Origin: a plasmid
Assembly (NCBI RefSeq): GCF_057098645.1
Contig: NZ_JBXSPU010000002.1
Reading direction: 5' to 3' (one strand)
Length of the DNA stretch: 64,000 nucleotides
In this document: in pieces, positions 11,152-55,736 of the stretch
How positions within the stretch are numbered: position 1 is the first letter of the stretch
How the letters are laid out: the number at the start of each line of letters is the position of its first letter
The notes under the pieces: model-generated
Database searches by the model: none
Seen by the model: only the letters and a program-made list of their open reading frames with translations
Told to the model about the DNA's origin: nothing
Program-made: the position numbers and the translations under genes

Positions 11152-13216
<2,065 letters not shown>

Positions 13217-21385: not shown

Positions 21386-21636
21386 ATTTCGTCCAAGCTC
21401 GCCGCGTTTAAATAAAAGGAAATGAAGGGAACAGGTAAAAATATTAGATGTTTAATTCTCATACGAGTTACCACCATGGAGCGGAAACAGGATTTTGAAT
21501 GACGTGATGACTTTACTAATTAAGCTTATTTAGAGGTATTAATAGAATATTAAAAAATTTTAATTTTACTGCTGACGTTTTCATAAATCTCCTTTCCTGA
21601 AAAGTCGGCGATAAATTGGTTACCAATATCTTCATA

Positions 21637-21891: not shown

Positions 21892-21991
21892 TCTTATGTC
21901 GTTTTGTCCCTAGAATCTAATTTTTTTCACAAATATTTGATGTTTATCTCCGGATCGTTGTTGTAGTCGCTCTCTCTTTTTTAGTTGCTGT

Positions 21992-23048: not shown

Positions 23049-23129
23049 AGTTGCTGTGAACCTGTTCATAAGTGGATACCTCAGTGCTAAAATAGCTGTA
23101 AATAAAAACAGTGTATTCAGGTGACCACC

Positions 23130-28084: not shown

Positions 28085-28305
28085 TATTTACCTGTAGAGT
28101 GCTTGCAAAATGGCATCTGAATCGATCGCAGTTTGGCATTCGAATCGATCATGATTTGGCATCCATCTCCGATCACAGTTTGGCATCACAATCGATCACG
28201 ATTTGGCATGCTTCCGATCATTGATTGGCATCCTGCCAGTCACTCCGGGAATTAACTCTTTTCACCACAGTCTCCATTGCCGTGTTTAAACCAGTGGAGA
28301 CGTCA

Positions 28306-29871
28306 ATGTCCAGAAAGAGAAAATCCAGGAGCACTATGGAAACCTGTTTTAAGATCCTTCAGCTCAAGTTCGACAAGAAGCTGACTAACCGTTGTATCGG
28401 ACTGACGTTACACATCAGCGCCTCAACCGTTTTTGAGGTTCTTGCCCGCTTCAAAGCCTCTTCTCTGTCATGGCCATTACCTGCTGATATATCCCATGAC
28501 ACGCTGGAGAAACTCATTTTTCCGCCCAAAGACACCTTTGCATCAGAGCTTGTAATGCCTGACATGTTGTACTTCGATACGGAAATGAGAAAACCAGGTG
28601 TGACGCGGCAACTGTTGTGGATGGAATACAAGGCACAGGCGGGTAACAAAGCGATGGGATACTCGCACTTCTGCCGTTGCTACCGGGAGTGGAAAAAAAC
28701 GCGACGTCTCTCCATGCGCCAGGAGCATCGTGCCGGCGAAAAGCTTTTTATCGACTTCTGTGGTCCTACGGTTCCTGTTATTAATCCGGACACCGGTGAG
28801 ATACGCCGCGTGGCAATCTTCGTGGCCGTAATGGGGGCGTCCAACTATACCTACGTTGAAGCGTGCGAAGGTCAGGACATGATGTCATGGTTAAATGCCC
28901 ACAGCCGTTGCCTGACCTTCCTGGGCGGCGTACCGAAGCTGCTCATCCCCGATAACCTCAGAAGCGCAGTGAAAAAGGCCGATCGATATGAGCCTGTCAT
29001 CAACGACAGTTATCAGGCACTGGCTGAGCACTATGGCACGGTTATCATCCCGGCCCGACCACGCAAACCTAAAGATAAACCAAAAGCAGAAAACGGCGTC
29101 CTCATCGTTGAACGATGGCTTCTTGCCCGCATCCGTAATGAAACCTTCCACACGCTCAGGGCGCTGAATGCGCGCCTTAGGGAGTTACTGACAGACATGA
29201 ATAACCGGCCAATGAAGGGGTACGGCAATCAAACCCGTGCAGAACGCTTCCGCATACTGGATGCGCCAGCACTCTCTCCGCTGCCTCTGGCACCTTATGA
29301 ATACACGGAATACAAAGCTGTGAAGGTTGGCCCTGACTACCACGTTGAATATGCCCGTCACTGGTACTCCGTTCCACACGAACTGGTCGGTCAGCGTCTG
29401 TCACTGAAGGCGGGGCAGTCGGTGGTACAGCTCTGGCACAAGGGGCAGTGTGTGGCGCAACATCCGCGCAGCACACATGAATATAAACACACAACCAATC
29501 CGCTTCACATGCCAGAGCGCCACCGGCAGCACGGGACATGGACACCGGAACGCCTGATCGAGCAGGGAAAACGTACGGGCCCGTCCACAGGCCGGGTGGT
29601 TGAATCCATGCTGAAGGCAAAACCCCATCCGGAACTGGCTTATCGTGCAGTTCTGGGGCTGCTGGCACTTCAGAAAAAATACGGCCCGGAACGGCTGGAA
29701 AAGGCCTGTTACGTTGCCCTGCACTATAACGCCCCTGACAGACGCTTTATCGACAATCTGCTGCGTCACCATCGGGAGAACCTGGAGCTTCCATTATCCC
29801 GCCAGGGCGAACAACATCCGGCATATGCTTCAGAGCATGAAAACCTGCGTGGTCCGGGCTACTACCACTGA
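28306..29871 (+). CDS. istA: IS21-family transposase IstA
   Basis: ORF 28225..29871; N-terminal HTH, central DDE integrase-like core; start codon choice uncertain. Confidence 0.8.
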   Translation: MSRKRKSRSTMETCFKILQLKFDKKLTNRCIGLTLHISASTVFEVLARFKASSLSWPLPADISHDTLEKLIFPPKDTFASELVMPDMLYFDTEMRKPGVTRQLLWMEYKAQAGNKAMGYSHFCRCYREWKKTRRLSMRQEHRAGEKLFIDFCGPTVPVINPDTGEIRRVAIFVAVMGASNYTYVEACEGQDMMSWLNAHSRCLTFLGGVPKLLIPDNLRSAVKKADRYEPVINDSYQALAEHYGTVIIPARPRKPKDKPKAENGVLIVERWLLARIRNETFHTLRALNARLRELLTDMNNRPMKGYGNQTRAERFRILDAPALSPLPLAPYEYTEYKAVKVGPDYHVEYARHWYSVPHELVGQRLSLKAGQSVVQLWHKGQCVAQHPRSTHEYKHTTNPLHMPERHRQHGTWTPERLIEQGKRTGPSTGRVVESMLKAKPHPELAYRAVLGLLALQKKYGPERLEKACYVALHYNAPDRRFIDNLLRHHRENLELPLSRQGEQHPAYASEHENLRGPGYYH

Positions 29872-29887
29872 CAGAAGGAACAACAGT

Positions 29888-30643
29888 ATGAGTGATAACC
29901 TGTTAAACAAACTGACCCAACTGAAACTCCCGGCGATGGCCGGGAGCCTGATACGGCAGCGGGAAACGCCTCAGACCTACGACGAACTGTCGTTCGAGGA
30001 AAGGCTGACGCTGCTGGTTGATGACGAGCTTCTGAGCAGGGAAAACAGCCGTGTGGCACGGTTGAGAAAAAATGCCGGCCTGAAATACCAGGCAACACCG
30101 GAAGGGCTGCGCTATCCGGCCTCAAGAGGTCTGCGGGCTGAACAGATGAGAGAACTGCTGAACGGCCACTACATAACCCACAGGAAAAACCTGCTGATAA
30201 CCGGTCCGACAGGATGTGGCAAGAGCTGGATAGCCAATGCGCTGGGCGAACAGGCATGTCGACAGAAACACAGCGTCCGGTACTGTAGAACCGGGCGATT
30301 ACTGGAACAACTGGCTCAGGGACGTGTTGATGGCAGCTGGCTGAAATATCTGAAACAGTTGCAAAAAATACAGGTTCTAATCCTGGACGATCTGGGGCTG
30401 GAACAGTTAAGTAACGCCCAGTGTAATGACCTTCTGGAGCTCATAGAGGATCGTTACGGACAAAGCAGCACGATAGTGGTAAGCCAGTTCCCGGTAGATA
30501 AATGGCATGGTCTGATGGAGAACCCAACAACAGCAGATGCCATCCTGGACAGACTGGTACATAACTCACACCGAGTGGTCCTTCAGGGAGAGTCACTGAG
30601 GAAAAATCCCCCGGTAGTGGAAAGCAGCGAAAAAACGCGTTAA
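29888..30643 (+). CDS. istB: IS21-family helper ATPase IstB
   Basis: Walker A GPTGCGKS and Walker B VLILDDLG in ORF starting MSDNLLNKL... Confidence 0.85.
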   Translation: MSDNLLNKLTQLKLPAMAGSLIRQRETPQTYDELSFEERLTLLVDDELLSRENSRVARLRKNAGLKYQATPEGLRYPASRGLRAEQMRELLNGHYITHRKNLLITGPTGCGKSWIANALGEQACRQKHSVRYCRTGRLLEQLAQGRVDGSWLKYLKQLQKIQVLILDDLGLEQLSNAQCNDLLELIEDRYGQSSTIVVSQFPVDKWHGLMENPTTADAILDRLVHNSHRVVLQGESLRKNPPVVESSEKTR

Positions 30644-30792
30644 AAAGCGGTAGAAAAAGTTAAGTTCCCGGTTGATCGAATGGATGCGAATCGCTGATCG
30701 GACTTCGATGCCAATCCGTGATCGAATAGAGCGGAATACGCACTCGTTATCATCAAGATAAAGAGGTTATTCTGCATGATTGTAAGGAAGAG

Positions 30793-32530: not shown

Positions 32531-32540
32531 TATTATTAAC

Positions 32541-32577
32541 CCTATCGGGAAATCTTTCCCGACGGGGAGGTTTTCCC
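32541..32577 (+). promoter_or_regulatory. GC-rich inverted-repeat element with downstream RBS-pairing segment (island hairpin family member 1)
   Basis: CCTATCGGGAAATCTTTCCCGACGGGGAGGTTTTCCC; GGTTTTCC can pair with the downstream GGAGAAAACC that contains the RBS. Confidence 0.55.
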
Positions 32578-32600
32578 ATTTCTAAATCTGGAGAAAACCT

Positions 32601-33728: not shown

Positions 33729-33747
33729 TTTAGTCTTGTAAAAATAT

Positions 33748-33803
33748 CCCCAGATGGGTACTTCACCATCTGGGTGAGTACCCTTTATCAAATAAAGGTA
33801 CTC
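33748..33803 (+). promoter_or_regulatory. GC-rich inverted-repeat element (family member 2) plus RBS-proximal hairpin
   Basis: CCCCAGATGGGTACTTCACCATCTGGGTGAGTACCC followed by GAGTACCCTTTATCAAATAAAGGTACTC ending 3 nt before the ATG. Confidence 0.55.
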
Positions 33804-33805
33804 AA

Positions 33806-35818: not shown

Positions 35819-35824
35819 ACTCTA

Positions 35825-35868
35825 CCCAATCGGGGCAAAACGACGCCCGGTTGGGTCGCTTTGCTCCC
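35825..35868 (+). promoter_or_regulatory. GC-rich inverted-repeat element (family member 3)
   Basis: CCCAATCGGGGCAAAACGACGCCCGGTTGGGTCGCTTTGCTCCC; TTGCTCC pairs with the GGAGCAA of the downstream RBS. Confidence 0.5.
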
Positions 35869-35889
35869 TGAAGGATTAAGGAGCAATAT

Positions 35890-36111: not shown

Positions 36112-36116
36112 TTGTT

Positions 36117-36203
36117 GAGGGCTCTTGTGGGCCCTCATTCTTAGATTCTGCGTTGTGGGTTTCTCCCTGTTTTCTGCATCGCAGAGGGCATTGAGAAACC
36201 CAC
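36117..36203 (+). promoter_or_regulatory. pair of inverted repeats upstream of the toprim gene
   Basis: GAGGGCTCTTGTGGGCCCTC and GTGGGTTTCTC...GAGAAACCCAC ending at the start codon. Confidence 0.5.
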
Positions 36204-36204
36204 A

Positions 36205-37458: not shown

Positions 37459-37460
37459 AT

Positions 37461-37500
37461 CCGATAACTCCCCCGCCTTTTCAGGCCGGGGTGGGTTATC
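37461..37500 (+). promoter_or_regulatory. inverted repeat downstream of toprim gene (possible terminator or processing hairpin)
   Basis: CCGATAACTCCCCCGCC...GGCCGGGGTGGGTTATC followed by T-rich sequence. Confidence 0.4.
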
Positions 37501-37732
37501 TCTTTAGTGTTTATTTACGTTAAATCCTAAACAGATAATCCGATTTCCTTCGTGAAAATCACCTGTTATTCAGGTTTTTTTTACGGCTGAGATGCTTGCT
37601 CAGTTTAATAAATGTGCGATACATCTGGCTACGGTCGGTTGTATGACATGGTATATCCATAAAACTTAAAACCCCTGACGGGAGTATTACCGTTAGGGTG
37701 ATGCTCATCGTTAAATATCGGAGAGCATTGTT

Positions 37733-38257
37733 ATGAATATTGAAAATCAAGATTTATTTAATACGTTCGCTGCTGTGATTTCATCTCATATCGTTGAGCA
37801 ACCATCTTCGTGTTATTACCTTCATGATAATGAAATTGACTTCACGATTTTAAAACACAGCATAATAGATAAAGACAAAAACCTGTTGTACGTTATTCGT
37901 CCTTCAGGAACCTGTTTGTTGCGTTGTGATAAATACTTCTTTCCGAATTACTATCTTACAAGTCGTGGAGATTATAAAGCATTTAAGTATGTGCATTTTA
38001 ATCTTGCAACACGAGAAGCGGAAGAAATCACCTGGCAGCAAGCTTTTGAAATTTTGTCCAAGCCGGGAAGACCTCCATTAAGAGGTTCACTTGGTAAATT
38101 TGATTATTTAAAACTTGTTATTGATGATCTTCGTGCGCGAGGGTATGCCGATTTCCTTCCAGCATACAACCTTGATGGCCTTCGTCACTTTGCAGTAAAG
38201 GATGAGCGACCATCACTTGTCAGTTATATCGACAATGTCATGGCACTTTGCGCATAA
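37733..38257 (+). CDS. hypothetical protein (174 aa)
   Basis: ORF with RBS; no family recognised. Confidence 0.45.
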   Translation: MNIENQDLFNTFAAVISSHIVEQPSSCYYLHDNEIDFTILKHSIIDKDKNLLYVIRPSGTCLLRCDKYFFPNYYLTSRGDYKAFKYVHFNLATREAEEITWQQAFEILSKPGRPPLRGSLGKFDYLKLVIDDLRARGYADFLPAYNLDGLRHFAVKDERPSLVSYIDNVMALCA

Positions 38258-38281
38258 AGATAACACATATTTTTACTACAT

Positions 38282-38317
38282 CCCTGATGGCACCTCCCAT
38301 CGGGGTGGCCCTCAGAG
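38282..38317 (+). promoter_or_regulatory. GC-rich inverted-repeat element (family member) interrupted by IS903B
   Basis: CCCTGATGGCACCTCCCATCGGGGTGGCCCTCAGAG; the last 9 bp are the IS903B target duplication, repeated at 39375-39383. Confidence 0.55.
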
Positions 38318-39374
38318 GGCTTTGTTGAATAAATCAGATTTCGGGTAAGTCTCCCCCGTAGCGGGTTGTGTTTTCAGGCAATACGCACGCTTTCAGGCAT
38401 ACCTGCTTTCGTCATTTTGTTCAGCGCTCGTACCAGGGCCATAGCCTCCGCAACCTGACCATCGTAGTCACGCAGCGTCAGTGAACCCCCGAACAGCTGT
38501 TTTACCCGGTACATCGCCGTTTCCGCTATCGAGCGACGGTTGTAATCTGTTGTCCATTTCCACCGCGCATTACTCCCGGTCATTCGCTGATTAGCCACTG
38601 CACGGTTACGGTCTGCATATTCACCGGGCCAGTAGCCCGCACCTTTTCGGGGAGGGATAAGCGCGCTGATTTTCTTACGCCGCAGTTCATCGTGACATAG
38701 CCGGGTATCGTAAGCGCCATCGGCGGCGGCTGACCTGATTTTCCGGTGGGTTTGCCGGATTAACCCGGGGAAGGCCTCTGAGTCCGTAACGTTGTTCAGC
38801 GACAGGTCTGCACAGATGATTTCATGTGTTTTACTGTCAACGGCGAGATGCAGCTTACGCCAGATACGGCGGCGTTCCTGGCCATGCTTTTTGACTTTCC
38901 ACTCGCCTTCACCGAAGACCTTCAGCCCGGTGGAATCAATCACCAGATGTGCGATTTCACCCCGGGTGGGCGTTTTGAAACTGACATTAACCGACTTTGC
39001 CCGCCTGCTGACACAGCTGTAATCCGGGCAGCGTAGCGGAACGTTCATCAGAGAAAAAATGGAATCAATAAAGCCCTGCGCAGCGCGCAGGGTCAGCCTG
39101 AATACGCGTTTAATGACCAGCACAGTCGTGATGGCAAGGTCAGAATAGCGCTGAGGTCTGCCTCGTGAAGAAGGTGTTGCTGACTCATACCAGGCCTGAA
39201 TAGCTTCATCATCCAGCCAGAAAGTTATGGAGCCACGGTTGATGAGGGCTTTATTGTAGGTGGGCCAGTTGGTGATTTTGAACTTTTGCTTTGCCACGGA
39301 ACGGTCTGCGTTGTCGGGAAGATGCGTGATCTGATCCTTCAACTCAGCAAAAGTTCGATTTATTCAACAAAGCC
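38318..39374 (-). mobile_element. IS903B-like element (1057 bp), copy 2
   Basis: identical transposase ORF (38374..39342) and IRs as copy 1; flanked by 9-bp direct repeat CCCTCAGAG. Confidence 0.9.
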
Positions 39375-39400
39375 CCCTCAGAGTTGAATCTGGAGGTCTT

Positions 39401-40279
39401 ATGAAATTAGCTACAGATCTGGTCAATGCGGTTCTGATAAAGAATGGCATTGTACCAACTTCCATTAATGAGTTGCCTGTAACGTCGCTGGTAAAGCCAT
39501 TGACACAAGTGCATCTCAGCCTGTATCTGAAAACAACGCATTTATCTCAGTTCGTCCCTGACTACGTTGAGTCTCTGAAAGATTGTCCGGTTTCGTATGA
39601 TATCGGCCTTGAACTTCAGCAGTGTATCAACAGTGCTGAATTGCTCTGTGAAGACATGGAGTCACTTGAGTTTATCTCTGTATGGATAGAGCTCTATACG
39701 TGTAATTCAAAGCAACAGCGGTTTGAGAAAAGTAACTTTTCTTTTCGAACTGAAGATATCGAGCTGGCTAAGATGCTGTCTTGCTCGCATGAAATCTTAA
39801 TAAGTCAGGCGGCTTGTTTCTGGCTTTTGTATTTTGAAGATTTCATGAAATATGTTCGTAATAGGCTCTGTGCATTACTCAGACAGGTTTTAATTTTGAT
39901 TGCAGGACTGCGAAATGTATACCTGCAACGGAATGAAGATCAGTTGATTAAGAGAGTTAAGCACGGGAATGAAATGCTGGAGGTGACTCTTAAAGCTGTT
40001 GCACTATGTTCAATAGAAAGGTATCTGAAATCATATGCCTCTTTACGAACAGAAGCGGCGGCTTCTGGGTTTATCAAATGCATTCAGTCTTATATCAGTA
40101 CTGGTTGGAGACATGGCTATATAGTCTGTCAATATTCAAAAAATGGACGGTCTCTTGGTAAGTCATTACCACTTTTTATAAAAGAGACATCTGAGCATAA
40201 TATACAGAAACGTGTCAATCGCCTTATATCTTCCACGATTTCGGGGCGAAATAAAGATTTAGGTCTTTACGATTTCTGA
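39401..40279 (+). CDS. hypothetical protein, tandem paralog family member 1 (292 aa)
   Basis: shares N-terminal h-x-x-A-h-L motif (LVNAVL) with the four downstream ORFs. Confidence 0.55.
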   Translation: MKLATDLVNAVLIKNGIVPTSINELPVTSLVKPLTQVHLSLYLKTTHLSQFVPDYVESLKDCPVSYDIGLELQQCINSAELLCEDMESLEFISVWIELYTCNSKQQRFEKSNFSFRTEDIELAKMLSCSHEILISQAACFWLLYFEDFMKYVRNRLCALLRQVLILIAGLRNVYLQRNEDQLIKRVKHGNEMLEVTLKAVALCSIERYLKSYASLRTEAAASGFIKCIQSYISTGWRHGYIVCQYSKNGRSLGKSLPLFIKETSEHNIQKRVNRLISSTISGRNKDLGLYDF

Positions 40280-40288
40280 TTAACATTA

Positions 40289-40325
40289 CCCATCCGGGGA
40301 TTACATCCCTGATGGGTGTAATCCC
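40289..40325 (+). promoter_or_regulatory. GC-rich hairpin element (family member)
   Basis: CCCATCCGGGGATTACATCCCTGATGGGTGTAATCCC: stem GGGGATTACATCCC/GGGTGTAATCCC, loop TGAT; GTAATCC also pairs with the downstream GGATTAC at the RBS/start. Confidence 0.6.
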
Positions 40326-40349
40326 ATTTTTTATTTAAGTGAGGATTAC

Positions 40350-41285
40350 ATGAAAATTATTGAGAAAATCATTAATGCATTTCTGATATCGCGTAAACAT
40401 TCAGTGAAGGTCAGTAATGTTATCTGCTTGAGTGGCACCGACGGTAAATTTACTGGAATATGCTGTGACGCCGATGTTTCATTTGATTTTCTTTATTCGT
40501 ATGCCCCCGCATACAGTTCAACATTTTTAGATATCCCGTTTCCTGGGTTTGAAGACCAGGACATCGCGGATTGTGTTAAATGTCAGTTAGATGTAGTTAA
40601 AAATAAACGGAATCGGTCTTTTTTAATTGACCATATTAGATTTCCAGTTTCCTCAAGGGAAGGATTCACTCTGACACGCGGTGATAGTTACGACGTGACT
40701 GAATGTGAATATAATAAGGAACGATTGCTACATCTGACCCGACAAGGACGTTTTTGTGAAGACTATCTCACGTTCAAGGATGGCCTGAGTTCCTTCTTTT
40801 CATTTGTGAATTTCGAATTACATGAAATAGTGAAGGAAGGTATACGTTTGGCACTTGATGTTTTAAACAAGATTACATCTGATCAACCAGACCGTCTTAT
40901 AAAAGACTTTAAGTATCATGATTGCTTCGGCAGTTATAATGTACAAATATTTTCTAAGGGTCTGCCAGTTGATATCCTTGAAACGATGATTGCACCTGAT
41001 AGGTTGTTGTCTAACTTGTCAGGTAGTCGTCAGATTATGAAAAATGCAAGTCGCTATCTTAAAGGCTTTGCCCTCAGTAATCGTGTTTACATGAAATACG
41101 GATGGCGTTTAGCAGATGTTGACACATCTGACTATGCGAAAGTTATGTCAGATAGAGAAATGCATGCCAGAGATGATCTTAAGGCGTTTTGCAGTGTCTT
41201 TTTTAAAGAGTGTTTCGCATCCGGAAAATATGAATACGAAGCATACCTGAGTGAAAGACAACACGCGATTCGTAACGGGTATTAA
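40350..41285 (+). CDS. hypothetical protein, tandem paralog family member 2 (311 aa)
   Basis: N-terminal IINAFL motif; size and position as other members. Confidence 0.55.
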   Translation: MKIIEKIINAFLISRKHSVKVSNVICLSGTDGKFTGICCDADVSFDFLYSYAPAYSSTFLDIPFPGFEDQDIADCVKCQLDVVKNKRNRSFLIDHIRFPVSSREGFTLTRGDSYDVTECEYNKERLLHLTRQGRFCEDYLTFKDGLSSFFSFVNFELHEIVKEGIRLALDVLNKITSDQPDRLIKDFKYHDCFGSYNVQIFSKGLPVDILETMIAPDRLLSNLSGSRQIMKNASRYLKGFALSNRVYMKYGWRLADVDTSDYAKVMSDREMHARDDLKAFCSVFFKECFASGKYEYEAYLSERQHAIRNGY

Positions 41286-41308
41286 TACTTATTATCAACT
41301 TATCTAAT

Positions 41309-41342
41309 CCCTGAGGGAATTCTTCCCTTGGGGAGGATTCCC
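41309..41342 (+). promoter_or_regulatory. GC-rich hairpin element (family member)
   Basis: CCCTGAGGGAATTCTTCCCTTGGGGAGGATTCCC; full stem pairing needs G-U wobble pairs, so an RNA-level structure is suggested. Confidence 0.6.
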
Positions 41343-41362
41343 TCTTAACCGAGGGCTACAAA

Positions 41363-42283
41363 ATGAAAGCGATTTATAAAATAATTGAAGCGATGCTGGT
41401 GAAAATGGGCTTTGAAGGTGCCGTGATCCAAAGTGTCAATCTGGAAACGGGTGTGATTCAGAGTCTAGTTGTTAAGGCTGATATTCCTGTCCGGACTTTA
41501 ATGCCGCATTTAAGGCGATATCTGCGCGATTGTGAGCCTTTATGGGGACATGACGTGGATTACCACCCTATAGCACAATATTGCTCAGGAGCTGCGTTGT
41601 TGAAGGCTGGGCCGGTCACTCTTGAAACCTTTCGGTTTGAGGTTTCAGTGTCAACTGCTCACCTGCGGCTTGTGGATGTTGAGCCGGACTGTCTAAATGA
41701 GGGTGTGAACCGTGAAAAACTGGAGTATGTATATTACCGCTCCAGCAATGCAGACAAGGATCTAATACTTGGTATGGTTGAAAAAGGACATAATTTTATC
41801 AACCATCTGCATGAACTTTTACGCTCGCGCTTATCAACGGCTTTGCCGCTGATTTTCGCAGTTACAGAAAAGATTGCGGAGAGTTCAGTTCCACAAGTAA
41901 TCACCAGCTTTTTCAGTGTTGACCATCAAATCAATGCCCAGATAGTAGTCGAACCTGTACCCGTTTCAGTCGCAGACCAGATAATTTCTGCTGACTGGAA
42001 TGTGTGTAGTGTTTCAGGAGCGGATAAGTTCCTGAACCATGTTAATCGTTATCTGTCGGGTAGGGTGATGAAGCGGCGTATTTACGCTGTTATAGAAGCT
42101 TGCGACGGTGGATCTTTATCCCTCAATGCGAACTTAGGTTGCTTTACATCACCTCTTCTCGTAACTGAGTATAAAATGGTTCAGTCACACTCTTCATCGC
42201 TTTATCGAAAGGCTATAAATAACTCGCTTAAGCAAGTTAATTCGTATGCTCCAGAGCATTCAGATGACCTGCTTTCTATGTAA
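41363..42283 (+). CDS. hypothetical protein, tandem paralog family member 3 (306 aa)
   Basis: N-terminal IIEAML motif. Confidence 0.55.
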   Translation: MKAIYKIIEAMLVKMGFEGAVIQSVNLETGVIQSLVVKADIPVRTLMPHLRRYLRDCEPLWGHDVDYHPIAQYCSGAALLKAGPVTLETFRFEVSVSTAHLRLVDVEPDCLNEGVNREKLEYVYYRSSNADKDLILGMVEKGHNFINHLHELLRSRLSTALPLIFAVTEKIAESSVPQVITSFFSVDHQINAQIVVEPVPVSVADQIISADWNVCSVSGADKFLNHVNRYLSGRVMKRRIYAVIEACDGGSLSLNANLGCFTSPLLVTEYKMVQSHSSSLYRKAINNSLKQVNSYAPEHSDDLLSM

Positions 42284-42292
42284 TTAATTTTA

Positions 42293-42330
42293 CCCATTGG
42301 GGAAGCGTATTCCCCGTGGGGGTTGCTTCC
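42293..42330 (+). promoter_or_regulatory. GC-rich hairpin element (family member)
   Basis: CCCATTGGGGAAGCGTATTCCCCGTGGGGGTTGCTTCC; CTTCCT can pair with the AGGAAG RBS 12 nt downstream. Confidence 0.6.
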
Positions 42331-42355
42331 TTTCTTCATTAAAGAGGAAGTGAAT

Positions 42356-43291
42356 ATGTTTAATGAAAGTGATGATAAAAACTTTGTTAGTGCAATGCTT
42401 AAATGTCAACTTGGCCTGAATATAAGCCAAGAGGATATTACAATATATGACAAAGAAAATCATTTTGAACAACTTTCTTTTAAAGCAAATGTGGCGCTTG
42501 ATGATTTGTTATTTTATCTGGATTTATATATATCAGAATTGATTAAGCATAATGCGCCGTATTCTGAAACTGAAGTCCTTCGGACTAAAATCAAATACTT
42601 TCTTAAAGTATATGAAAAGTCTGGTTTTCAGAACATAAGAATTCGCGGTTATCATAACGCGCACAGTACTATAGATATTGTCGATATCGCATCATTAATA
42701 TTGGCGGGGTCTGTACCGGAGTCTGAACATGATTCAATAGATCCTGTTTTAAGAAAGGAAATCTATCAAAATCGCATGAGTGTTGAGGGTAAAGTTCTCA
42801 TTGCCCGTTTTGCACTTAAGCAATTTTTCCATTCTGATTTTGGTGATTTCATCTTAGAGTTCGAGAAAAGTATCTCCAAGTGTTTGAATACTTCTCTCCA
42901 GATAATTAAATCTGTAAAGAACTCATTTAACCGTTTAGGTCAATATCAATATCAGCGTCGTGTAAAAGATGACCTGACTTTGCATCTTGATTTGAATACA
43001 GATGAATACCCGGCCTGTATGCCAGACCTTTACATCGGTTTCAAGGAGTCTGAAGGGACGACGGGAGTGTATCGCGATGATGAAAAAATCATTCGTCTTT
43101 ATACTGGCGTTAGTTCCGGAAAGGATGTTCCTGTAATGATGACCGTTCGATTCACTGGCTGTGACGGGAGTGTTTTGTCTGAATCATCGCACGGTACTTT
43201 CTGTTCCGTGGGACCTACCGGCCGAGTGCAGGTTTGTGACAGAGTTGCGTTGGTCCAAGAAGCGGTCGAAGAGTTACGGGATGTTGTTTAA
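42356..43291 (+). CDS. hypothetical protein, tandem paralog family member 4 (311 aa from MFNESDD...)
   Basis: clearly paralogous to member 5 (VEGKVLIARFALKQFF vs VDGQVLIARFALEKFW and N-terminal FVSAML vs YVRAVL); AGAGGAAG RBS 5 nt upstream. Confidence 0.6.
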   Translation: MFNESDDKNFVSAMLKCQLGLNISQEDITIYDKENHFEQLSFKANVALDDLLFYLDLYISELIKHNAPYSETEVLRTKIKYFLKVYEKSGFQNIRIRGYHNAHSTIDIVDIASLILAGSVPESEHDSIDPVLRKEIYQNRMSVEGKVLIARFALKQFFHSDFGDFILEFEKSISKCLNTSLQIIKSVKNSFNRLGQYQYQRRVKDDLTLHLDLNTDEYPACMPDLYIGFKESEGTTGVYRDDEKIIRLYTGVSSGKDVPVMMTVRFTGCDGSVLSESSHGTFCSVGPTGRVQVCDRVALVQEAVEELRDVV

Positions 43292-43407
43292 CCCTTGTTT
43301 TTTACCTCTTCATTCCAAAAAGTAACTTTGTTCTACCAAATGACCGCGCTACCTATTCTGATCAACTTGCAGGAAAGAATGGCGCAGTAGTACATATTTT
43401 TAATCCA

Positions 43408-43443
43408 CCCACTGGGGAAGTCGCTCCCCTGTGGGGCACTTCC
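43408..43443 (+). promoter_or_regulatory. GC-rich hairpin element (family member)
   Basis: CCCACTGGGGAAGTCGCTCCCCTGTGGGGCACTTCC; ACTTCCT can pair with the AGGAAGT RBS downstream. Confidence 0.6.
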
Positions 43444-43467
43444 TTTAATAATCCTGAGGAAGTGAAG

Positions 43468-44424
43468 ATGACTAATTCTACTGATAACCAGAACTACGTT
43501 CGTGCAGTACTGGCAGGCATTGGTATTGATTTTGATGAAACAGAGATGTTTATCAGTGTCTCTCATTGCCAGAGCGACGAAGTTTCGTTTACATGCAGTA
43601 TATCAGCCAGTGAGTTAAGAGAATCTGCGGGGCATTATGTGGATACTCTTAATGATACCCAACTGGCTGGCCTGGATGCGGATGCACTCAAGAAGCGACT
43701 GGTTTACTTCCTTGAGGTTTTCGACCTGGTTTCCGGTCAATATCTGGATATTTCCGGTAAACATTTCGCGACCAGCCGCTTTGAATACGACGATGTCTGT
43801 AGTGAGATCCTGAGTAACTCTGCGGACAGCGCCCAGCCAGGTGGCTATGATCGTGAAGAGTACAAAAGACTGATGGAAGTTGATGGTCAGGTTTTAATCG
43901 CCCGATTTGCACTGGAAAAATTCTGGGATACGCATTTTATTGGGCTTATCAACTATGTATCAGATGAAATAACATCCGGGCTTTATGAGGTTTATCGCAC
44001 GTTCAGTGATATAAACATGGCCGGTTATACATTTAGTGAGTATTCATATACGCGTCGTATTACCGACGAACTTAGTTTGCATATTTCACTTAAAGAGGAC
44101 GATTTCGAAGAGCAATTAACCGATTGTTATATGGATGAAACAACGCTGCCGTCTGGCAAGGTGGTTTTACGCCGTAATAATGAATCAATTATTGGGATTT
44201 ATGAAGGATATGCTTCAAAATCTTACTTTCCTATGGTTGCTAATGTTAGAGTCCTTGATACAGATGGTGAAGTTGTTACTGAACTTTACCAAGGGGTGAA
44301 TGTATCAGAATTAGCTGGTGGTCGGATTAAAATCCATGACCGTCAGGAATTAATTTCTGAGGTGTTCGCTAACTTACGTGAATTCATCCCAGCATCAGAG
44401 GATAAAATCTTTGATGCGGCATGA
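43468..44424 (+). CDS. hypothetical protein, tandem paralog family member 5 (318 aa from MTNSTDN...)
   Basis: paralog of member 4; last gene before a rho-independent terminator. Confidence 0.6.
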   Translation: MTNSTDNQNYVRAVLAGIGIDFDETEMFISVSHCQSDEVSFTCSISASELRESAGHYVDTLNDTQLAGLDADALKKRLVYFLEVFDLVSGQYLDISGKHFATSRFEYDDVCSEILSNSADSAQPGGYDREEYKRLMEVDGQVLIARFALEKFWDTHFIGLINYVSDEITSGLYEVYRTFSDINMAGYTFSEYSYTRRITDELSLHISLKEDDFEEQLTDCYMDETTLPSGKVVLRRNNESIIGIYEGYASKSYFPMVANVRVLDTDGEVVTELYQGVNVSELAGGRIKIHDRQELISEVFANLREFIPASEDKIFDAA

Positions 44425-44471
44425 GTCCTGAAGGTTGAATTATATATTTTCAGGTTTTTATACTTCTAAGA

Positions 44472-44500
44472 AGGCACGGTTATCCGTGCCTTTTTTTTTG
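44472..44500 (+). terminator. rho-independent terminator after the paralog array
   Basis: GGCACGGTTATCCGTGCC hairpin followed by T9. Confidence 0.75.
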
Positions 44501-46016: not shown

Positions 46017-46174
46017 TGTTTTCCAACCTATTGGGGAAATTCCGGAATGTGTTTATATAGCTGTAAGTAAAGCACTGCGTATTCCGCTCTATTCGATCAC
46101 GGATTGGCATCGAAGTCCGATCAGCGATTCGCATCCATTCGATCAACCGGGAACTTAACTTTTTCTACCGCTTT

Positions 46175-46930
46175 TTAACGCGTTTTTTCGCTGCTTTCCA
46201 CTACCGGGGGATTTTTCCTCAGTGACTCTCCCTGAAGGACCACTCGGTGTGAGTTATGTACCAGTCTGTCCAGGATGGCATCTGCTGTTGTTGGGTTCTC
46301 CATCAGACCATGCCATTTATCTACCGGGAACTGGCTTACCACTATCGTGCTGCTTTGTCCGTAACGATCCTCTATGAGCTCCAGAAGGTCATTACACTGG
46401 GCGTTACTTAACTGTTCCAGCCCCAGATCGTCCAGGATTAGAACCTGTATTTTTTGCAACTGTTTCAGATATTTCAGCCAGCTGCCATCAACACGTCCCT
46501 GAGCCAGTTGTTCCAGTAATCGCCCGGTTCTACAGTACCGGACGCTGTGTTTCTGTCGACATGCCTGTTCGCCCAGCGCATTGGCTATCCAGCTCTTGCC
46601 ACATCCTGTCGGACCGGTTATCAGCAGGTTTTTCCTGTGGGTTATGTAGTGGCCGTTCAGCAGTTCTCTCATCTGTTCAGCCCGCAGACCTCTTGAGGCC
46701 GGATAGCGCAGCCCTTCCGGTGTTGCCTGGTATTTCAGGCCGGCATTTTTTCTCAACCGTGCCACACGGCTGTTTTCCCTGCTCAGAAGCTCGTCATCAA
46801 CCAGCAGCGTCAGCCTTTCCTCGAACGACAGTTCGTCGTAGGTCTGAGGCGTTTCCCGCTGCCGTATCAGGCTCCCGGCCATCGCCGGGAGTTTCAGTTG
46901 GGTCAGTTTGTTTAACAGGTTATCACTCAT
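46175..46930 (-). CDS. istB: IS21-family IstB ATPase (copy 2)
   Basis: identical to 29888..30643 product. Confidence 0.85.
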   Translation of the reverse strand: MSDNLLNKLTQLKLPAMAGSLIRQRETPQTYDELSFEERLTLLVDDELLSRENSRVARLRKNAGLKYQATPEGLRYPASRGLRAEQMRELLNGHYITHRKNLLITGPTGCGKSWIANALGEQACRQKHSVRYCRTGRLLEQLAQGRVDGSWLKYLKQLQKIQVLILDDLGLEQLSNAQCNDLLELIEDRYGQSSTIVVSQFPVDKWHGLMENPTTADAILDRLVHNSHRVVLQGESLRKNPPVVESSEKTR

Positions 46931-46946
46931 ACTGTTGTTCCTTCTG

Positions 46947-48512
46947 TCAGTGGTAGTAGCCCGGACCACGCAGGTTTTCATGCTCTGAAGCATATGCCGG
47001 ATGTTGTTCGCCCTGGCGGGATAATGGAAGCTCCAGGTTCTCCCGATGGTGACGCAGCAGATTGTCGATAAAGCGTCTGTCAGGGGCGTTATAGTGCAGG
47101 GCAACGTAACAGGCCTTTTCCAGCCGTTCCGGGCCGTATTTTTTCTGAAGTGCCAGCAGCCCCAGAACTGCACGATAAGCCAGTTCCGGATGGGGTTTTG
47201 CCTTCAGCATGGATTCAACCACCCGGCCTGTGGACGGGCCCGTACGTTTTCCCTGCTCGATCAGGCGTTCCGGTGTCCATGTCCCGTGCTGCCGGTGGCG
47301 CTCTGGCATGTGAAGCGGATTGGTTGTGTGTTTATATTCATGTGTGCTGCGCGGATGTTGCGCCACACACTGCCCCTTGTGCCAGAGCTGTACCACCGAC
47401 TGCCCCGCCTTCAGTGACAGACGCTGACCGACCAGTTCGTGTGGAACGGAGTACCAGTGACGGGCATATTCAACGTGGTAGTCAGGGCCAACCTTCACAG
47501 CTTTGTATTCCGTGTATTCATAAGGTGCCAGAGGCAGCGGAGAGAGTGCTGGCGCATCCAGTATGCGGAAGCGTTCTGCACGGGTTTGATTGCCGTACCC
47601 CTTCATTGGCCGGTTATTCATGTCTGTCAGTAACTCCCTAAGGCGCGCATTCAGCGCCCTGAGCGTGTGGAAGGTTTCATTACGGATGCGGGCAAGAAGC
47701 CATCGTTCAACGATGAGGACGCCGTTTTCTGCTTTTGGTTTATCTTTAGGTTTGCGTGGTCGGGCCGGGATGATAACCGTGCCATAGTGCTCAGCCAGTG
47801 CCTGATAACTGTCGTTGATGACAGGCTCATATCGATCGGCCTTTTTCACTGCGCTTCTGAGGTTATCGGGGATGAGCAGCTTCGGTACGCCGCCCAGGAA
47901 GGTCAGGCAACGGCTGTGGGCATTTAACCATGACATCATGTCCTGACCTTCGCACGCTTCAACGTAGGTATAGTTGGACGCCCCCATTACGGCCACGAAG
48001 ATTGCCACGCGGCGTATCTCACCGGTGTCCGGATTAATAACAGGAACCGTAGGACCACAGAAGTCGATAAAAAGCTTTTCGCCGGCACGATGCTCCTGGC
48101 GCATGGAGAGACGTCGCGTTTTTTTCCACTCCCGGTAGCAACGGCAGAAGTGCGAGTATCCCATCGCTTTGTTACCCGCCTGTGCCTTGTATTCCATCCA
48201 CAACAGTTGCCGCGTCACACCTGGTTTTCTCATTTCCGTATCGAAGTACAACATGTCAGGCATTACAAGCTCTGATGCAAAGGTGTCTTTGGGCGGAAAA
48301 ATGAGTTTCTCCAGCGTGTCATGGGATATATCAGCAGGTAATGGCCATGACAGAGAAGAGGCTTTGAAGCGGGCAAGAACCTCAAAAACGGTTGAGGCGC
48401 TGATGTGTAACGTCAGTCCGATACAACGGTTAGTCAGCTTCTTGTCGAACTTGAGCTGAAGGATCTTAAAACAGGTTTCCATAGTGCTCCTGGATTTTCT
48501 CTTTCTGGACAT
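46947..48512 (-). CDS. istA: IS21-family IstA transposase (copy 2)
   Basis: identical to 28306..29871 product. Confidence 0.8.
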   Translation of the reverse strand: MSRKRKSRSTMETCFKILQLKFDKKLTNRCIGLTLHISASTVFEVLARFKASSLSWPLPADISHDTLEKLIFPPKDTFASELVMPDMLYFDTEMRKPGVTRQLLWMEYKAQAGNKAMGYSHFCRCYREWKKTRRLSMRQEHRAGEKLFIDFCGPTVPVINPDTGEIRRVAIFVAVMGASNYTYVEACEGQDMMSWLNAHSRCLTFLGGVPKLLIPDNLRSAVKKADRYEPVINDSYQALAEHYGTVIIPARPRKPKDKPKAENGVLIVERWLLARIRNETFHTLRALNARLRELLTDMNNRPMKGYGNQTRAERFRILDAPALSPLPLAPYEYTEYKAVKVGPDYHVEYARHWYSVPHELVGQRLSLKAGQSVVQLWHKGQCVAQHPRSTHEYKHTTNPLHMPERHRQHGTWTPERLIEQGKRTGPSTGRVVESMLKAKPHPELAYRAVLGLLALQKKYGPERLEKACYVALHYNAPDRRFIDNLLRHHRENLELPLSRQGEQHPAYASEHENLRGPGYYH

Positions 48513-48716
48513 TGACGTCTCCACTGGTTTAAACACGGCAATGGAGACTGTGGTGAAAAGAGTTAATTCCCGGAGTGACTGGCAGGATGCCAATCAATGA
48601 TCGGAAGCATGCCAAATCGTGATCGATTGTGATGCCAAACTGTGATCGGAGATGGATGCCAAATCATGATCGATTCGAATGCCAAACTGCGATCGATTCA
48701 GATGCCATTTTGCAAA

Positions 48717-49904: not shown

Positions 49905-49946
49905 TGAACCGCCCCGGGTTTCCTGGAGAGTGTTTTATCTGTGAAC

Positions 49947-50837
49947 TCAGGCTGCCAGATCATCGTTTCCGATGGAAGCATAATAAGCTTTTTCTGCTTC
50001 TGCCGGGGGAGTATGGCCCAGCCTTTCCAGCAATCGTCGATTGTTATACCAGTCCACCCACGTGAGTGTGGCCAGTTCCACTTCTGCACGGTTTTTCCAG
50101 CTCTTACGGTGTATTACCTCCGCTTTGTAAAGACCATTGATGCTCTCCGCCATCGCGTTGTCATACGAGTCACCTGTACTCCCTGTTGATGCCAGCAGTT
50201 TTGCTTCTTTTAGTCGCTCCGTATAGGCCAGTGATACATACTGAGAACCTTTATCACTGTGATGGACTGTGCCGGACGGCCGACGGGCCCACAACGCCTG
50301 CTCCAGTGCATCCAGCACGAATGTTGTTTCCATGGATGATGAGACCTGCCATCCCACGATGTATCCGGCGAACACATCAATGATGAACGCCACATAAACG
50401 AAGCCCCGCCATGTGCTGACGTAAGTAAAATCAGCCACCCACAGCTGGTCAGGTCGTTCTGCCACGAACTGACGGTTTACGCGGTCGCCTGCGGCAACGG
50501 CTTTCCGGCTGATGGTCGTACGGACCTTTTTACCCCGGAGAACACCGGCAAGTCCCATAACTGCCATGAGACGTGCCACAGTGCATCTGGCCACTCTGAT
50601 ACCTTCCCGTAACAACTGACGCCAGACTTTACGCACACCGTATACCTGGTGATTTTCATCGTATACGCGCTGTATCTCTTTCTTCAGCCAGTCATCGTGC
50701 TGCGCACGGGCACTGCGTTTATCCGGATGATGTCGCTGTTGCTGACAGTGGTAATACGTTGACGGGGCAATATGCAGTTCGCTGCATAGCGGTCCGACCC
50801 CGTACTGCTCACGCAGCTTATCCAGCAGTGGCATCAT
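49947..50837 (-). CDS. IS629 OrfB (DDE transposase domain)
   Basis: IS3-family integrase-core ORF. Confidence 0.85.
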
Positions 50838-51160
50838 TTTTTCCAGAGGCGGTCGAACTCCGCCTTCGCAAAATAAGCGGAAGCCTGGCGAAGGATATCG
50901 TTACTGCGGCGCAGTTCACGATTTTCACGCTCCAGCTCTTTCAGACGCTGACGTTCAGCGGTGGTGAGCCCGCCATCACCGCCCCCGGTATCCCGCTCAT
51001 GCTGGCGAACCCAGACACGCAGAGTCTCCGGCGTACAGCCAATCTTTGGAGCAATGGAACAAATTGTCGCCCATTGTGAGTCATATTCATCCTGACTTTC
51101 CAGAACCATACGAATCGCCCGCTGACGGACTTCGGGGGAAAAACGAGTATTTTTAGTCAT
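50834..51160 (-). CDS. IS629 OrfA (HTH/leucine-zipper)
   Basis: [23 protein letters not shown]... Confidence 0.85.
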
Positions 51161-51271
51161 CCTGTTTACCTCTTTCTCAGGGAGTTTAGTCTCCAGGATT
51201 TCCGGGGCGGTTCAGCCATAAAGTTATGTTCCTGACGTATGTATTCGTCCCGCAGGAATCAACCAACTGAT

Positions 51272-53930: not shown

Positions 53931-54087
53931 TTAAGGGAAATTCGCATGTTGTATACAAAAGTCAACTTTATTGATGCAACAGGATATACCTATTGCTGGG
54001 ATAGATACTACAGACAAAAAATACTAAGGGGTTCCAAGCCGCAACTGAACCGCCCCGGTTTTCCTGGAGAGTGTTTTATCTGTGAAC

Positions 54088-54978
54088 TCAGGCTGCCAGA
54101 TCATCGTTTCTGATGGAAGCATAATAAGCTTTTTCTGCTTCTGCCGGAGGGATATGACCCAGCCTTCCCAGCAATCGTCGATTGTTATACCAGTCCACCC
54201 ACGTGAGTGTGGCCAGTTCCACTTCTGCACGGTTTTTCCAGCTCTTACGGTGTATTACCTCCGCTTTGTAAAGACCATTGATGCTCTCCGCCATCGCGTT
54301 GTCATACGAGTCACCTGTACTCCCTGTTGATGCCAGCAGTTTTGCTTCTTTTAGTCGCTCCGTATAGGCCAGTGATACATACTGAGAACCTTTATCACTG
54401 TGATGGACTGTGCCGGACGGCCGACGGGCCCACAACGCCTGCTCCAGTGCATCCAGCACGAATGTCGTTTCCATGGACGATGAGACCCGCCACCCCACGA
54501 TGTATCCGGCAAACACATCAATGATGAACGCCACATAGACGAAGCCCTGCCATGTGCTGACGTAAGTAAAATCAGCCACCCACAGCTGGTCAGGTCGTTC
54601 TGCCACGAACTGACGGTTTACGCGGTCGCCTGCGGCAACGGCTTTCCGGCTGATGGTCGTACGGACCTTTTTACCCCGGAGAACACCGGCAAGTCCCATA
54701 ACTGCCATGAGACGTGCCACAGTGCATCTGGCCACTCTGATACCTTCCCGTAACAACTGACGCCAGACTTTACGCACACCGTATACCTGGTGATTTTCAT
54801 CGTATACGCGCTGTATCTCTTTCTTCAGCCAGTCATCGTGCTGCGCACGGGCACTGCGTTTATCCGGATGATGTCGCTGTTGCTGACAATGGTAATACGT
54901 TGACGGGGCAATATGCAGTTCGCTGCATAGCGGTCCGACCCCGTACTGCTCACGCAGCTTATCCAGCAGTGGCATCAT
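54088..54978 (-). CDS. IS629 OrfB (copy 2)
   Basis: near-identical to copy 1 (e.g. WQGFVYVAF vs WRGFVYVAF). Confidence 0.85.
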
Positions 54979-55301
54979 TTTTTCCAGAGGCGGTCGAACT
55001 CCGCCTTCGCAAAATAAGCGGAAGCCTGGCGAAGGATATCGTTACTGCGGCGCAGTTCACGATTTTCACGTTCCAGCTCTTTCAGACGCTGACGTTCAGC
55101 GGTGGTGAGTCCACCATCACCACTCCCGGTATCCCGCTCATGCTGACGAACCCACACACGCAGAGTCTCTGGTGTACAGCCAATCTTTGGGGCAATGGAA
55201 CAAATTGCCGCCCATTGTGAGTCATATTCGCCCTGACTTTCCAGAACCATACGAACTGCCCGTTGACGGACCTCGGGGGAAAAACGTGTATTTTTAGTCA
55301 T
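54975..55301 (-). CDS. IS629 OrfA (copy 2)
   Basis: near-identical to copy 1. Confidence 0.85.
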
Positions 55302-55736
55302 CCTGTTTACCTCTTTCTCAGGGAGTTTAGTCTCCAGGATTCCCGGGGCGGTTCAAGGTTTGCTTTTCTGTGTAGGTTTAGATTTTGTGTTTGCAGGGTA
55401 AACAAAACTGATTAACTCGTCATTTCGGTAACTGAAATAGTTTGCTGTATTCTGTTTACAATCTCTTTAATAAGGCATTTGTCACGTGGCTATTCATATG
55501 AAAATCATACGTTATCTTACAAATCAATCATCTGAGTGTTATAATATAACTTAGCTGTGATATGTGTAAGAATGTTTAGGCAATATATTATTATCGCTAA
55601 TGTTGTTTTGGTTGGGAGAGATTCTCCTTGCGGTAGCTTTTTGTTTTTAGATGCTTCTTGCTTAAAAAGATATAATTTCTGTTCTTTTATATAGGATTCT
55701 TTACATTTACTGAGTTTTCTTATTTATTTAAACATT

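What the first reader, a model, noticed from the sequence alone, without database searches (positions are those of the whole stretch)
38309..39383. IS903B inserted exactly inside a hairpin element between the 174-aa gene and paralog 1
The 9-bp target duplication CCCTCAGAG (38309-38317 and 39375-39383) lies within the conserved hairpin motif and only 17 bp upstream of the paralog-1 start codon. The insertion is a simple, probably recent transposition. It separates the paralog array from its upstream sequence and could silence it by polarity or drive it from an IS-borne outward promoter.
Basis: seen in the sequence. Interest (0 to 1): 0.45.

Follow-up and report, generated by a model that had tools for sequence, protein, structure and literature searches.

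The report
IS903B insertion upstream of plasmid paralogs
A common jumping gene (IS903B) has recently landed between two genes of an IncHI1 resistance plasmid, splitting a small RNA hairpin that covers the ribosome-binding site of the next gene; this is an ordinary event that probably silences five genes of unknown function.

Summary
A 1057-bp IS903B (38318-39374) has perfect 18-bp inverted repeats and an IS5-family DDE transposase on the minus strand. It is flanked by the 9-bp duplication CCCTCAGAG, which occurs nowhere else in the window, and it ends 17 nt before the paralog-1 ATG.

Removing the IS and one duplicate copy in silico gives a sequence 100% identical to the uninterrupted site in more than 200 IncHI1 plasmids, R27 included. 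No record in the plasmid or E. coli collections has this junction. The insertion is therefore derived, simple and recent.

The IS does not sit in the GC-rich hairpin (38282-38305). It splits the second stem-loop (38307-38317 | 39384-39398), which pairs an anti-SD with the paralog-1 Shine-Dalgarno. This two-hairpin module recurs at 10 or more consecutive gene junctions and is conserved into IncHI2.

I found no outward promoter. Polar silencing of P1-P5 is the likely effect, but it is inferred, not shown. Three things dilute its importance:
- the array is silent in wild-type R27;
- other IncHI1 plasmids carry independent IS insertions in the array;
- in this window the cluster is already cut from its upstream region by an IS21-family element.

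Ordinary; low interest.

The parts
38318..39374 (-). IS903B, 1057 bp (strand given is that of the transposase gene)
   Evidence: 100% identical to the RefSeq-annotated IS903B in NZ_AP027830.
38318..38335 (.). Terminal inverted repeat, at the end distal to the transposase start (GGCTTTGTTGAATAAATC)
39357..39374 (.). Terminal inverted repeat, at the transposase-proximal end (reverse complement of the same 18-mer)
38374..39342 (-). IS5-family DDE transposase ORF (322 aa from TTG, as RefSeq annotates the identical protein)
38309..38317 (.). Left copy of the 9-bp target-site duplication CCCTCAGAG
39375..39383 (.). Right copy of the 9-bp target-site duplication CCCTCAGAG
38282..38305 (+). Hairpin A of the g174>P1 intergenic module (CCCTGATGG-CACCTC-CCATCGGGG). 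Left intact by the insertion.
38307..38317 (+). 5' arm (anti-SD, GGCC-C-TCAGA) plus first loop base of hairpin B. Now separated from its partner by the IS.
39384..39398 (+). Rest of the loop (TTGAA) and 3' arm of hairpin B (TCTGG-A-GGTC), which contains the P1 Shine-Dalgarno GGAGG at 39392-39396
37733..38257 (+). 174-aa gene (g174), intact. Its stop codon lies 60 nt before the IS.
39401..40279 (+). Paralog 1 (292 aa), intact ORF
   Evidence: HHalign against the P2-P5 family gives probability 97%.
40350..44424 (+). Paralogs 2-5 (40350-41285, 41363-42283, 42356-43291, 43468-44424), downstream of the insertion
44468..44500 (+). Strong intrinsic-terminator-like hairpin with a T-run that closes the array

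Best explanation
One copy of IS903B (IS5 family) transposed recently into the 77-nt spacer between the 174-aa gene and paralog 1 of a conserved IncHI1 backbone gene cluster. It is a plain insertion that made the usual 9-bp duplication.

The staggered cut fell in the 5' arm and loop of a conserved stem-loop. In the ancestral mRNA that stem-loop pairs an anti-SD (GGCCCTCAGA) with the paralog-1 ribosome-binding site.

The transposase gene points against the cluster. Any transcript coming from upstream must therefore cross about 1 kb of untranslated antisense IS sequence before reaching P1. The most likely consequence is polar loss of P1-P5 expression. That consequence is inferred. What is shown is the insertion itself, its derived state and the hairpin it split.

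Because the duplication copies most of the anti-SD, a weakened form of the SD-masking hairpin re-forms at the right junction. Transcripts leaving the IS would therefore still translate P1 poorly.

The choice of site probably reflects regional capture in AT-rich, H-NS-type DNA and the array's tolerance of insertions. It does not look like recognition of the hairpin.
For: Anatomy of the insertion.

Derived and recent:
- The excised 240-bp site matches 247 plasmids without interruption, 218 of them at 99% identity or more; every one of the 35 sampled rows down to row 35 of the ranking, R27 included, is 100% identical.
- The flanks are 100% identical to relatives.
- The exact junction is absent from the plasmid and E. 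coli collections.
- The two IS903B copies in the window differ at 0 of 1057 positions, and each has its own duplication.

The hairpin that was hit:
- The ancestral spacer folds into hairpin A plus hairpin B at -26.2 kcal/mol, z = -2.5.
- Both hairpins are recovered by RNAalifold across five lineages.
- They are seen with compensatory changes in the IncHI1B-like and IncHI2 lineages.
- Hairpin B drops from -11.2 to about -7.9 kcal/mol at the new right junction.

Co-transcription from upstream:
- The spacers are 70-77 nt and show no promoter-like sites.
- R27 microarrays show R0198-R0210 derepressed 19- to 115-fold in an htdA mutant at 25 C (38- to 115-fold for R0198-R0203, the array genes), and these genes are near-silent in wild type (PMC7366339).

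The array tolerates insertions. Independent IS903B, IS2 or IS3-family insertions sit in P1, P3 and P5 of other IncHI1 plasmids.

Site choice:
- IS903 hotspots coincide with H-NS-bound DNA (PMC11335895).
- The array is 36-46% GC.
Against: - No expression data exist for this plasmid, so polarity is inferred.
- My mapping of R27 ORF numbers to these genes rests on counting gene order (trhN = R0005 ... toprim = R0204, P1 = R0202), not on the original annotation.
- In this window an IS21-family element already cuts the cluster at 30742/30743, inside the homologue of R0210. Upstream-driven transcription may have been lost before IS903B arrived, which would make the insertion neutral.
- The simple consensus scans could miss weak internal promoters in the array.
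- H-NS binding here was not tested.
Confidence: 0.85

Rival explanations
1. The insertion activates the array. An outward or hybrid promoter at the IS903B end next to P1 drives P1-P5 independently of the native HtdA/TrhR-TrhY-controlled transcription.
For: IS elements of several families are known to create such promoters (general knowledge). The IS end lies only 26 nt from the ATG. A weak TTCAAC-N15-TTGAAT pair spans the junction (my reading).
Against: - The consensus scan finds no plus-strand promoter-like site at the right end.
- A relaxed scan finds only a 7/12 match, well inside the IS.
- The weak junction pair would start transcription at or inside the SD.
- The SD remains partly paired at the junction.
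- The papers I read on IS903B report gene inactivation, not activation.
Confidence: 0.07
2. The hairpin itself attracted the IS: structure-specific targeting of a cruciform or palindrome.
For: IS903 prefers targets with palindromic flanks (WTTYA-N9-TRAAW; PMC2577343). The site lies in an inverted repeat.
Against: - The site matches the preferred motif at only 4 of 10 flank positions (sequence, motif).
- The duplication is not centred on the palindrome.
- The three other IS903B insertions in this array lie inside ORFs, not in hairpins.
- None of the other nine hairpin modules in the window carries an IS.
Confidence: 0.05
3. The insertion is functionally neutral here, because the cluster had already been disconnected from its promoter by the IS21-family element and inversion. 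IS903B would then be just one more hit in decaying, non-selected DNA.
For: - The cluster starts abruptly at 30743, inside the R0210 homologue. The 5' part of that gene and everything upstream are absent from the window.
- Two inverted identical IS21-family copies bracket the 15.3-kb segment.
- The array is hit by IS elements repeatedly in other plasmids.
- The array is near-silent in wild-type R27.
Against: - The order of the two events is unknown.
- All ORFs of the cluster remain intact in the window, so any decay is very recent.
- A promoter in the 274-nt toprim>g174 spacer cannot be excluded.
Confidence: 0.35

Closest known systems
IS903B / IS903 (IS5 family, IS903 group)
   Same: Length 1057 bp, perfect 18-bp terminal inverted repeats, 9-bp target duplication and a single DDE transposase spanning the element. 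It is 100% identical to copies that RefSeq annotates as IS903B.
   Different: Nothing in the element itself. Only the insertion site is new among the collections searched.
IS903B insertional inactivation, e.g. of mgrB, wcaJ, rmpA and fim in Klebsiella
   Same: The same element acts as a disruptive mutagen near or inside a gene (PMC10540941, PMC11363291).
   Different: Here the ORFs are intact. The hit is in an intercistronic spacer, so any effect would come from polarity or loss of translational control. No phenotype or selection is known.
SD-sequestering intercistronic hairpins (translational coupling elements; two-hairpin intergenic RNA thermometer of Yersinia yscW-lcrF, PMC3280987)
   Same: The disrupted element is a stem-loop pairing an anti-SD with the SD of the downstream cistron. 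It is preceded by a second hairpin in a short intergenic spacer.
   Different: The resemblance is one of architecture only. No Rfam family matches, temperature or ribosome dependence was not tested, and there is no fourU motif. The module is reiterated at 10 or more junctions, which the known examples are not.

Membership tests
IS903B (IS5 family) | Element length about 1057 bp | tested here: met
   38318-39374 = 1057 bp
IS903B (IS5 family) | Perfect 18-bp terminal inverted repeats | tested here: met
   GGCTTTGTTGAATAAATC at both ends; the arms diverge from base 19
IS903B (IS5 family) | 9-bp direct target-site duplication | tested here: met
   CCCTCAGAG on both sides, with only these two occurrences in the window
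IS903B (IS5 family) | Single DDE transposase of the IS5 family | tested here: met
   Pfam DDE_Tnp_1 (E = 6.6e-33) and DDE_Tnp_1_5 (E = 3.4e-40). NCBIfam NF033579, 357 bits against a cutoff of 140.
IS903B (IS5 family) | Near-identity to the reference IS903B nucleotide sequence (ISfinder) | tested here: inconclusive
   ISfinder was not available. The element is 100% identical to an IS whose transposase (WP_000654804.1) RefSeq names 'IS5-like element IS903B family transposase'.
Simple (non-composite, unrearranged) insertion | Matching duplication on both sides, and flanks contiguous in IS-free relatives | tested here: met
   The second IS903B copy has its own, different duplication, AGTTGCTGT, so the two copies have not recombined or moved as a unit.
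SD-sequestering translational control hairpin | Stable stem pairing the SD, conserved across lineages with compensatory changes | tested here: met
   Covariation in this particular spacer is modest: 2 of 16 pairs have double changes.
SD-sequestering translational control hairpin | Demonstrated effect on translation (ribosome, temperature or factor dependent) | not testable with these tools
   Needs reporter fusions or structure probing

The most novel reading that the evidence does not exclude
The 'hairpin element' the IS split is one unit of an undescribed, reiterated intercistronic control module: a GC-rich hairpin A followed by an anti-SD:SD hairpin B. The module sits at 10 or more consecutive junctions of a roughly 13-kb IncHI backbone cluster that is co-regulated with conjugation. 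In about half the units, the apical part of hairpin A carries a cognate SD-like sequence able to pair with the anti-SD, which would make a three-element on/off switch gating the translation of each cistron. The IS903B insertion would then be a natural experiment that uncouples one unit.
Probability: 0.3. Interest if true: 0.5.

Novelty: already known. Interest (0 to 1): 0.12.

Why it matters
As an event it matters little. IS903B hops constantly in Enterobacterales plasmids, and this one hit a gene array of unknown function that is dispensable.

It has two modest uses. First, it is a lineage marker: a unique junction, plus a second identical IS903B and a pair of IS21-family copies. Second, it is a natural polar mutant of P1-P5, which could help in asking what this orphan, IncHI-restricted paralog family does.

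The more interesting by-product is the conserved two-hairpin module at every junction of the cluster. If it is functional, it would be an unusual case of reiterated translational gating in a plasmid operon tied to conjugation.

Tried and rejected
1. Composite transposon or IS-IS recombination. The two identical direct IS903B copies (21992-23048 and 38318-39374) each have their own matching duplication, so neither applies.
2. Same insertion in known plasmids. The only 'full-coverage' hits (AP027830, CP033094, CP145535) turned out to carry IS903B at other positions, inside the P1 or P3 ORFs.
3. Outward promoter. Strict and relaxed scans were both negative.
4. Match to the IS903 preferred target motif. 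Poor, 4 of 10 positions (plus the sequence).
5. Function of the genes downstream:
   - No Pfam, PHROGs or NCBIfam hit.
   - Homologues occur only in IncHI-type contexts.
6. Rfam. No family matches the hairpins.
7. The three-element switch (X:anti-SD). Cognate-specific complementarity ranks first in 5 of 10 modules, but only fifth for the g174>P1 module the IS hit. I do not claim the switch for this spacer.
8. Hu & Derbyshire 1998 (PMC107802) and the original R27 record AF250878 could not be retrieved.
9. Orientation bias. All four IS903B insertions in the array point the same way, but four events are too few to be significant.

Full report
**1. The observation**

CCCTCAGAG occurs only twice in the 64-kb window, at 38309-38317 and 39375-39383; shuffles give a mean of 0.25 occurrences.

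The 1057 bp between the two copies (38318-39374) begin and end with a perfect 18-bp inverted repeat, GGCTTTGTTGAATAAATC. They hold one long minus-strand ORF (38374-39342). That ORF hits Pfam DDE_Tnp_1 and DDE_Tnp_1_5 and the NCBIfam IS5-family transposase equivalog at 357 bits against a cutoff of 140.

The element is 100% identical to the IS in plasmid NZ_AP027830, whose transposase RefSeq names IS903B family. The right duplicate copy ends 17 nt before the paralog-1 ATG at 39401.

**2. Derived, simple and recent**

The backbone is IncHI1. I removed the IS and one duplicate copy in silico and searched 240 bp across the repaired site.
- 247 of 248 matching plasmids carry it uninterrupted.
- 218 of them are at least 99% identical; the 35 sampled rows down to row 35 of the ranking, among them R27 (NC_002305) and the many roughly 190-kb swine and human IncHI1 plasmids, are all 100% identical.
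- In a 3.1-kb query the flanks matched relatives at 100% as two pieces spanning 2035 bp, which is exactly 3101 minus 1066.

A 241-bp junction query found no record with this junction in 72,556 plasmids or in 5,426 complete E. coli genomes. The apparent full-coverage hits have IS903B elsewhere:
- inside the P1 ORF in AP027830 (duplication GACTGCGAA);
- inside P3 in CP033094 (duplication GGTAGGGTG);
- inside P3 at another position in CP145535.

R27 itself has IS2 in P5, and CP080081 has an IS3-family element in P1. The array therefore takes IS hits repeatedly and tolerates them. This particular hit is private to the window's source.

A second IS903B at 21992-23048 is identical at all 1057 positions and lies in the same orientation. 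It has its own duplication, AGTTGCTGT, and its site is empty in relatives. There are therefore two independent simple insertions, not a composite transposon or a recombination product.

**3. What exactly was hit**

The repaired 77-nt spacer folds into two hairpins:
- Hairpin A, 38282-38305: CCCTGATGG / CCATCGGGG with a 6-nt loop.
- Hairpin B, 38307-38317 | 39384-39398: GGCC-C-TCAGA / TCTGG-A-GGTC. Its 3' arm contains the P1 Shine-Dalgarno GGAGG (39392-39396).

The IS sits after the first loop base of hairpin B. The duplicated 9-mer is the 5' arm minus its first two G's, plus that loop base. Hairpin A is untouched.

The hairpin concerned is the SD-masking one, not the conspicuous GC-rich one.

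The ancestral structure scores -26.2 kcal/mol, z = -2.5. Both hairpins recur at the same place in four other lineages, with some compensatory change, and RNAalifold recovers both:
- an IncHI1B-like Citrobacter plasmid (87% DNA identity);
- an IncHI2 plasmid (P1 51% amino-acid identity);
- two more distant contigs (P1 37-38% identity).

Because the duplication copies most of the anti-SD, a weaker hairpin B re-forms at the right junction: about -7.9 against -11.2 kcal/mol, no longer better than shuffles.

**4. Context of the hairpins**

The same bipartite module precedes each of at least ten consecutive plus-strand genes: a GC-rich hairpin, then an anti-SD:SD hairpin. The run goes from the gene before DUF3150 through VWA, toprim, g174 and P1-P5.

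The other nine modules fold far better than shuffles, z = -3.8 to -8.5 with 0-1 of 200 shuffles as good. They keep their structure with compensatory changes into IncHI2. No Rfam family matches, and a full-text search found no description for IncHI plasmids.

In five of ten modules the anti-SD is best complementary to its own hairpin-A region rather than to any other module's (rank 1 of 10). Some of these pairs covary. For example, GGGGATTAC / GTAATCCC / GAGGATTAC in IncHI1 becomes GGGGATCAC / GTGATCCC / GAGGATCAC in IncHI2. This hints at a three-element switch. For the g174>P1 module the cognate rank is only 5 of 10, so I do not claim the switch there.

**5. Likely consequence**

No sigma-70-like site reads out of the IS toward P1. 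The weak junction pair TTCAAC-N15-TTGAAT would start transcription inside the SD. The spacers within the array are 70-77 nt (176 nt for P4>P5) and show no promoter-like sites, and a strong terminator follows P5 at 44468-44500.

Published R27 microarrays (PMC7366339) report ORFs R0198-R0203 as essentially unexpressed in wild type at 25 or 37 C. In an htdA mutant at 25 C they are derepressed 38- to 115-fold, together with R0204-R0210.

By counting gene order from trhN = R0005, I infer toprim = R0204, g174 = R0203, P1 = R0202 ... P5' = R0198. This mapping is inferred. The original annotation was not retrievable.

Co-derepression across the insertion site argues that P1-P5 are transcribed from upstream. 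About 1 kb of untranslated antisense IS should therefore be polar. This is inference; no data exist for this plasmid.

**6. A complication**

Relative to pYUYZMPE6-1 (NZ_CP139340), the window's cluster begins abruptly at 30743, inside the homologue of R0210. It directly abuts a 2640-bp IS21-family element encoding IstA (548 aa) and IstB (332 aa). A second, inverted, 100% identical copy lies at 46076-48715, and the DNA to the left of 28104 is inverted.

The 5' part of that gene and everything upstream are absent from the window. The native upstream promoter region is thus already disconnected, and the IS903B insertion may add little. The order of the two events is unknown.

**7. Why here**

The site matches the published IS903 target motif WTTYA-N9-TRAAW (PMC2577343) at only 4 of 10 flank positions. 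The duplication is not centred on the palindrome, and the other IS903B hits in the array lie in ORFs. Hairpin-specific targeting is therefore unlikely.

IS903 hotspots coincide with H-NS-bound DNA (PMC11335895), and the array is 36-46% GC. R27 genes are H-NS/Hha modulated according to PMC7366339. Regional capture plus tolerance is the economical explanation, but it was not tested.

**8. What lies downstream**

P4-P5 (E = 2e-38) and P2-P3 (E = 2e-8) are clear paralogs. The P1 family matches the P2-P5 profile with HHalign probability 97%, E = 4e-11, so 'paralog 1' is justified.

The family is an orphan:
- No Pfam, PHROGs or NCBIfam hit.
- Thirteen cluster representatives among 1.84 billion proteins.
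- In the plasmid collection, close relatives (80-100% identity) on about 280 plasmids, of which the records examined are IncHI1-type, and 1117 records below 60% identity (51% in the sampled rows); the one examined is IncHI2.

**9. Verdict**

This is a real, well-delimited and very ordinary IS903B insertion. It is recent, simple, private to this plasmid, and probably polar or neutral. The element is already known, and only the site is new. Interest is low. The reiterated two-hairpin intercistronic module it landed in is the more unusual thing seen.

Noticed in passing
window 32531-32600, 33729-33805, 35819-35889, 36112-36204, ~37672-37732, 38258-38317|39384-39400, 40280-40349, 41286-41362, 42284-42355, ~43405-43467: A bipartite intercistronic module precedes 10 or more consecutive plus-strand genes: a GC-rich hairpin followed by an anti-SD:SD hairpin. 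Fold z-scores range from -2.5 (the repaired g174>P1 spacer) to -8.5, and the structure is conserved with compensatory changes in IncHI1B-like and IncHI2 plasmids. In 5 of 10 modules the anti-SD is best complementary to its own upstream hairpin, which suggests a possible three-element switch. There is no Rfam match and I found no description for IncHI plasmids.
   Followed up: partly
window 21992-23048 (duplication 21983-21991 / 23049-23057): A second IS903B, identical at 1057 of 1057 positions and in the same orientation, with its own duplication AGTTGCTGT. It lies near the hha / tyrosine-recombinase region. The site is empty in related IncHI1 plasmids.
   Followed up: yes
window 28103-30742 and 46076-48715: Two inverted, 100% identical copies of a 2640-bp IS21-family element (IstA 548 aa, IstB 332 aa) bracket the 15.3-kb segment that holds the cluster and the IS903B. 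The left copy truncates the homologue of R27 R0210 at 30743. The backbone left of 28104 is inverted relative to NZ_CP139340. What lies beyond 48715 was not identified.
   Followed up: partly
L002 (NZ_AP027830) 4550-5606; L003 (NZ_CP033094) 5203-6259; L008 (NZ_CP145535) ~4800-5860; L005 (R27) 11342-12570; L009 (NZ_CP080081) ~2920-4260: Other IncHI1 plasmids carry independent IS insertions in the same paralog array: IS903B in P1 and twice in P3, IS2 in P5 of R27, and an IS3-family element in P1. All four IS903B copies, counting the one in this window, point antisense to the array.
   Followed up: partly
window 39401-44424 (P1-P5) and 37733-38257 (g174): Five divergent paralogs of about 300 aa, plus a 174-aa gene, form an orphan family found only in IncHI-type contexts. 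There is no domain hit and no PDB fold neighbour for the P1 model. By gene-order inference they correspond to R27 R0198-R0203, which are silent in wild type and about 100-fold derepressed in an htdA mutant at 25 C (PMC7366339).
   Followed up: partly
window 40297-40325: In the P1>P2 spacer, the alternative pairing GGGATTAC...GTAATCCC followed by ATTTTTTATT scores as an intrinsic-terminator-like site. The 'SD-open' conformer of this module might therefore also act as an attenuator.
   Followed up: no
window 37459-37732: The unusually long 274-nt toprim>g174 spacer holds two terminator-like hairpins (37472-37495 and 37561-37575) ahead of the usual two-hairpin module. This fits the roughly 3- to 8-fold drop in R27 array signal between R0204 and R0203.
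   Followed up: no
window 4376-5970 / 9084-10678; 49905-51214 / 54046-55355; 13407-14177 / 18204-18973 / 20618-21386: Further long internal repeats in the window: a 1.6-kb direct pair, a 1.3-kb direct pair at 97.5% identity, and three copies of about 770 bp that match the IS1 copies annotated in NZ_CP139340. None was examined.
   Followed up: no
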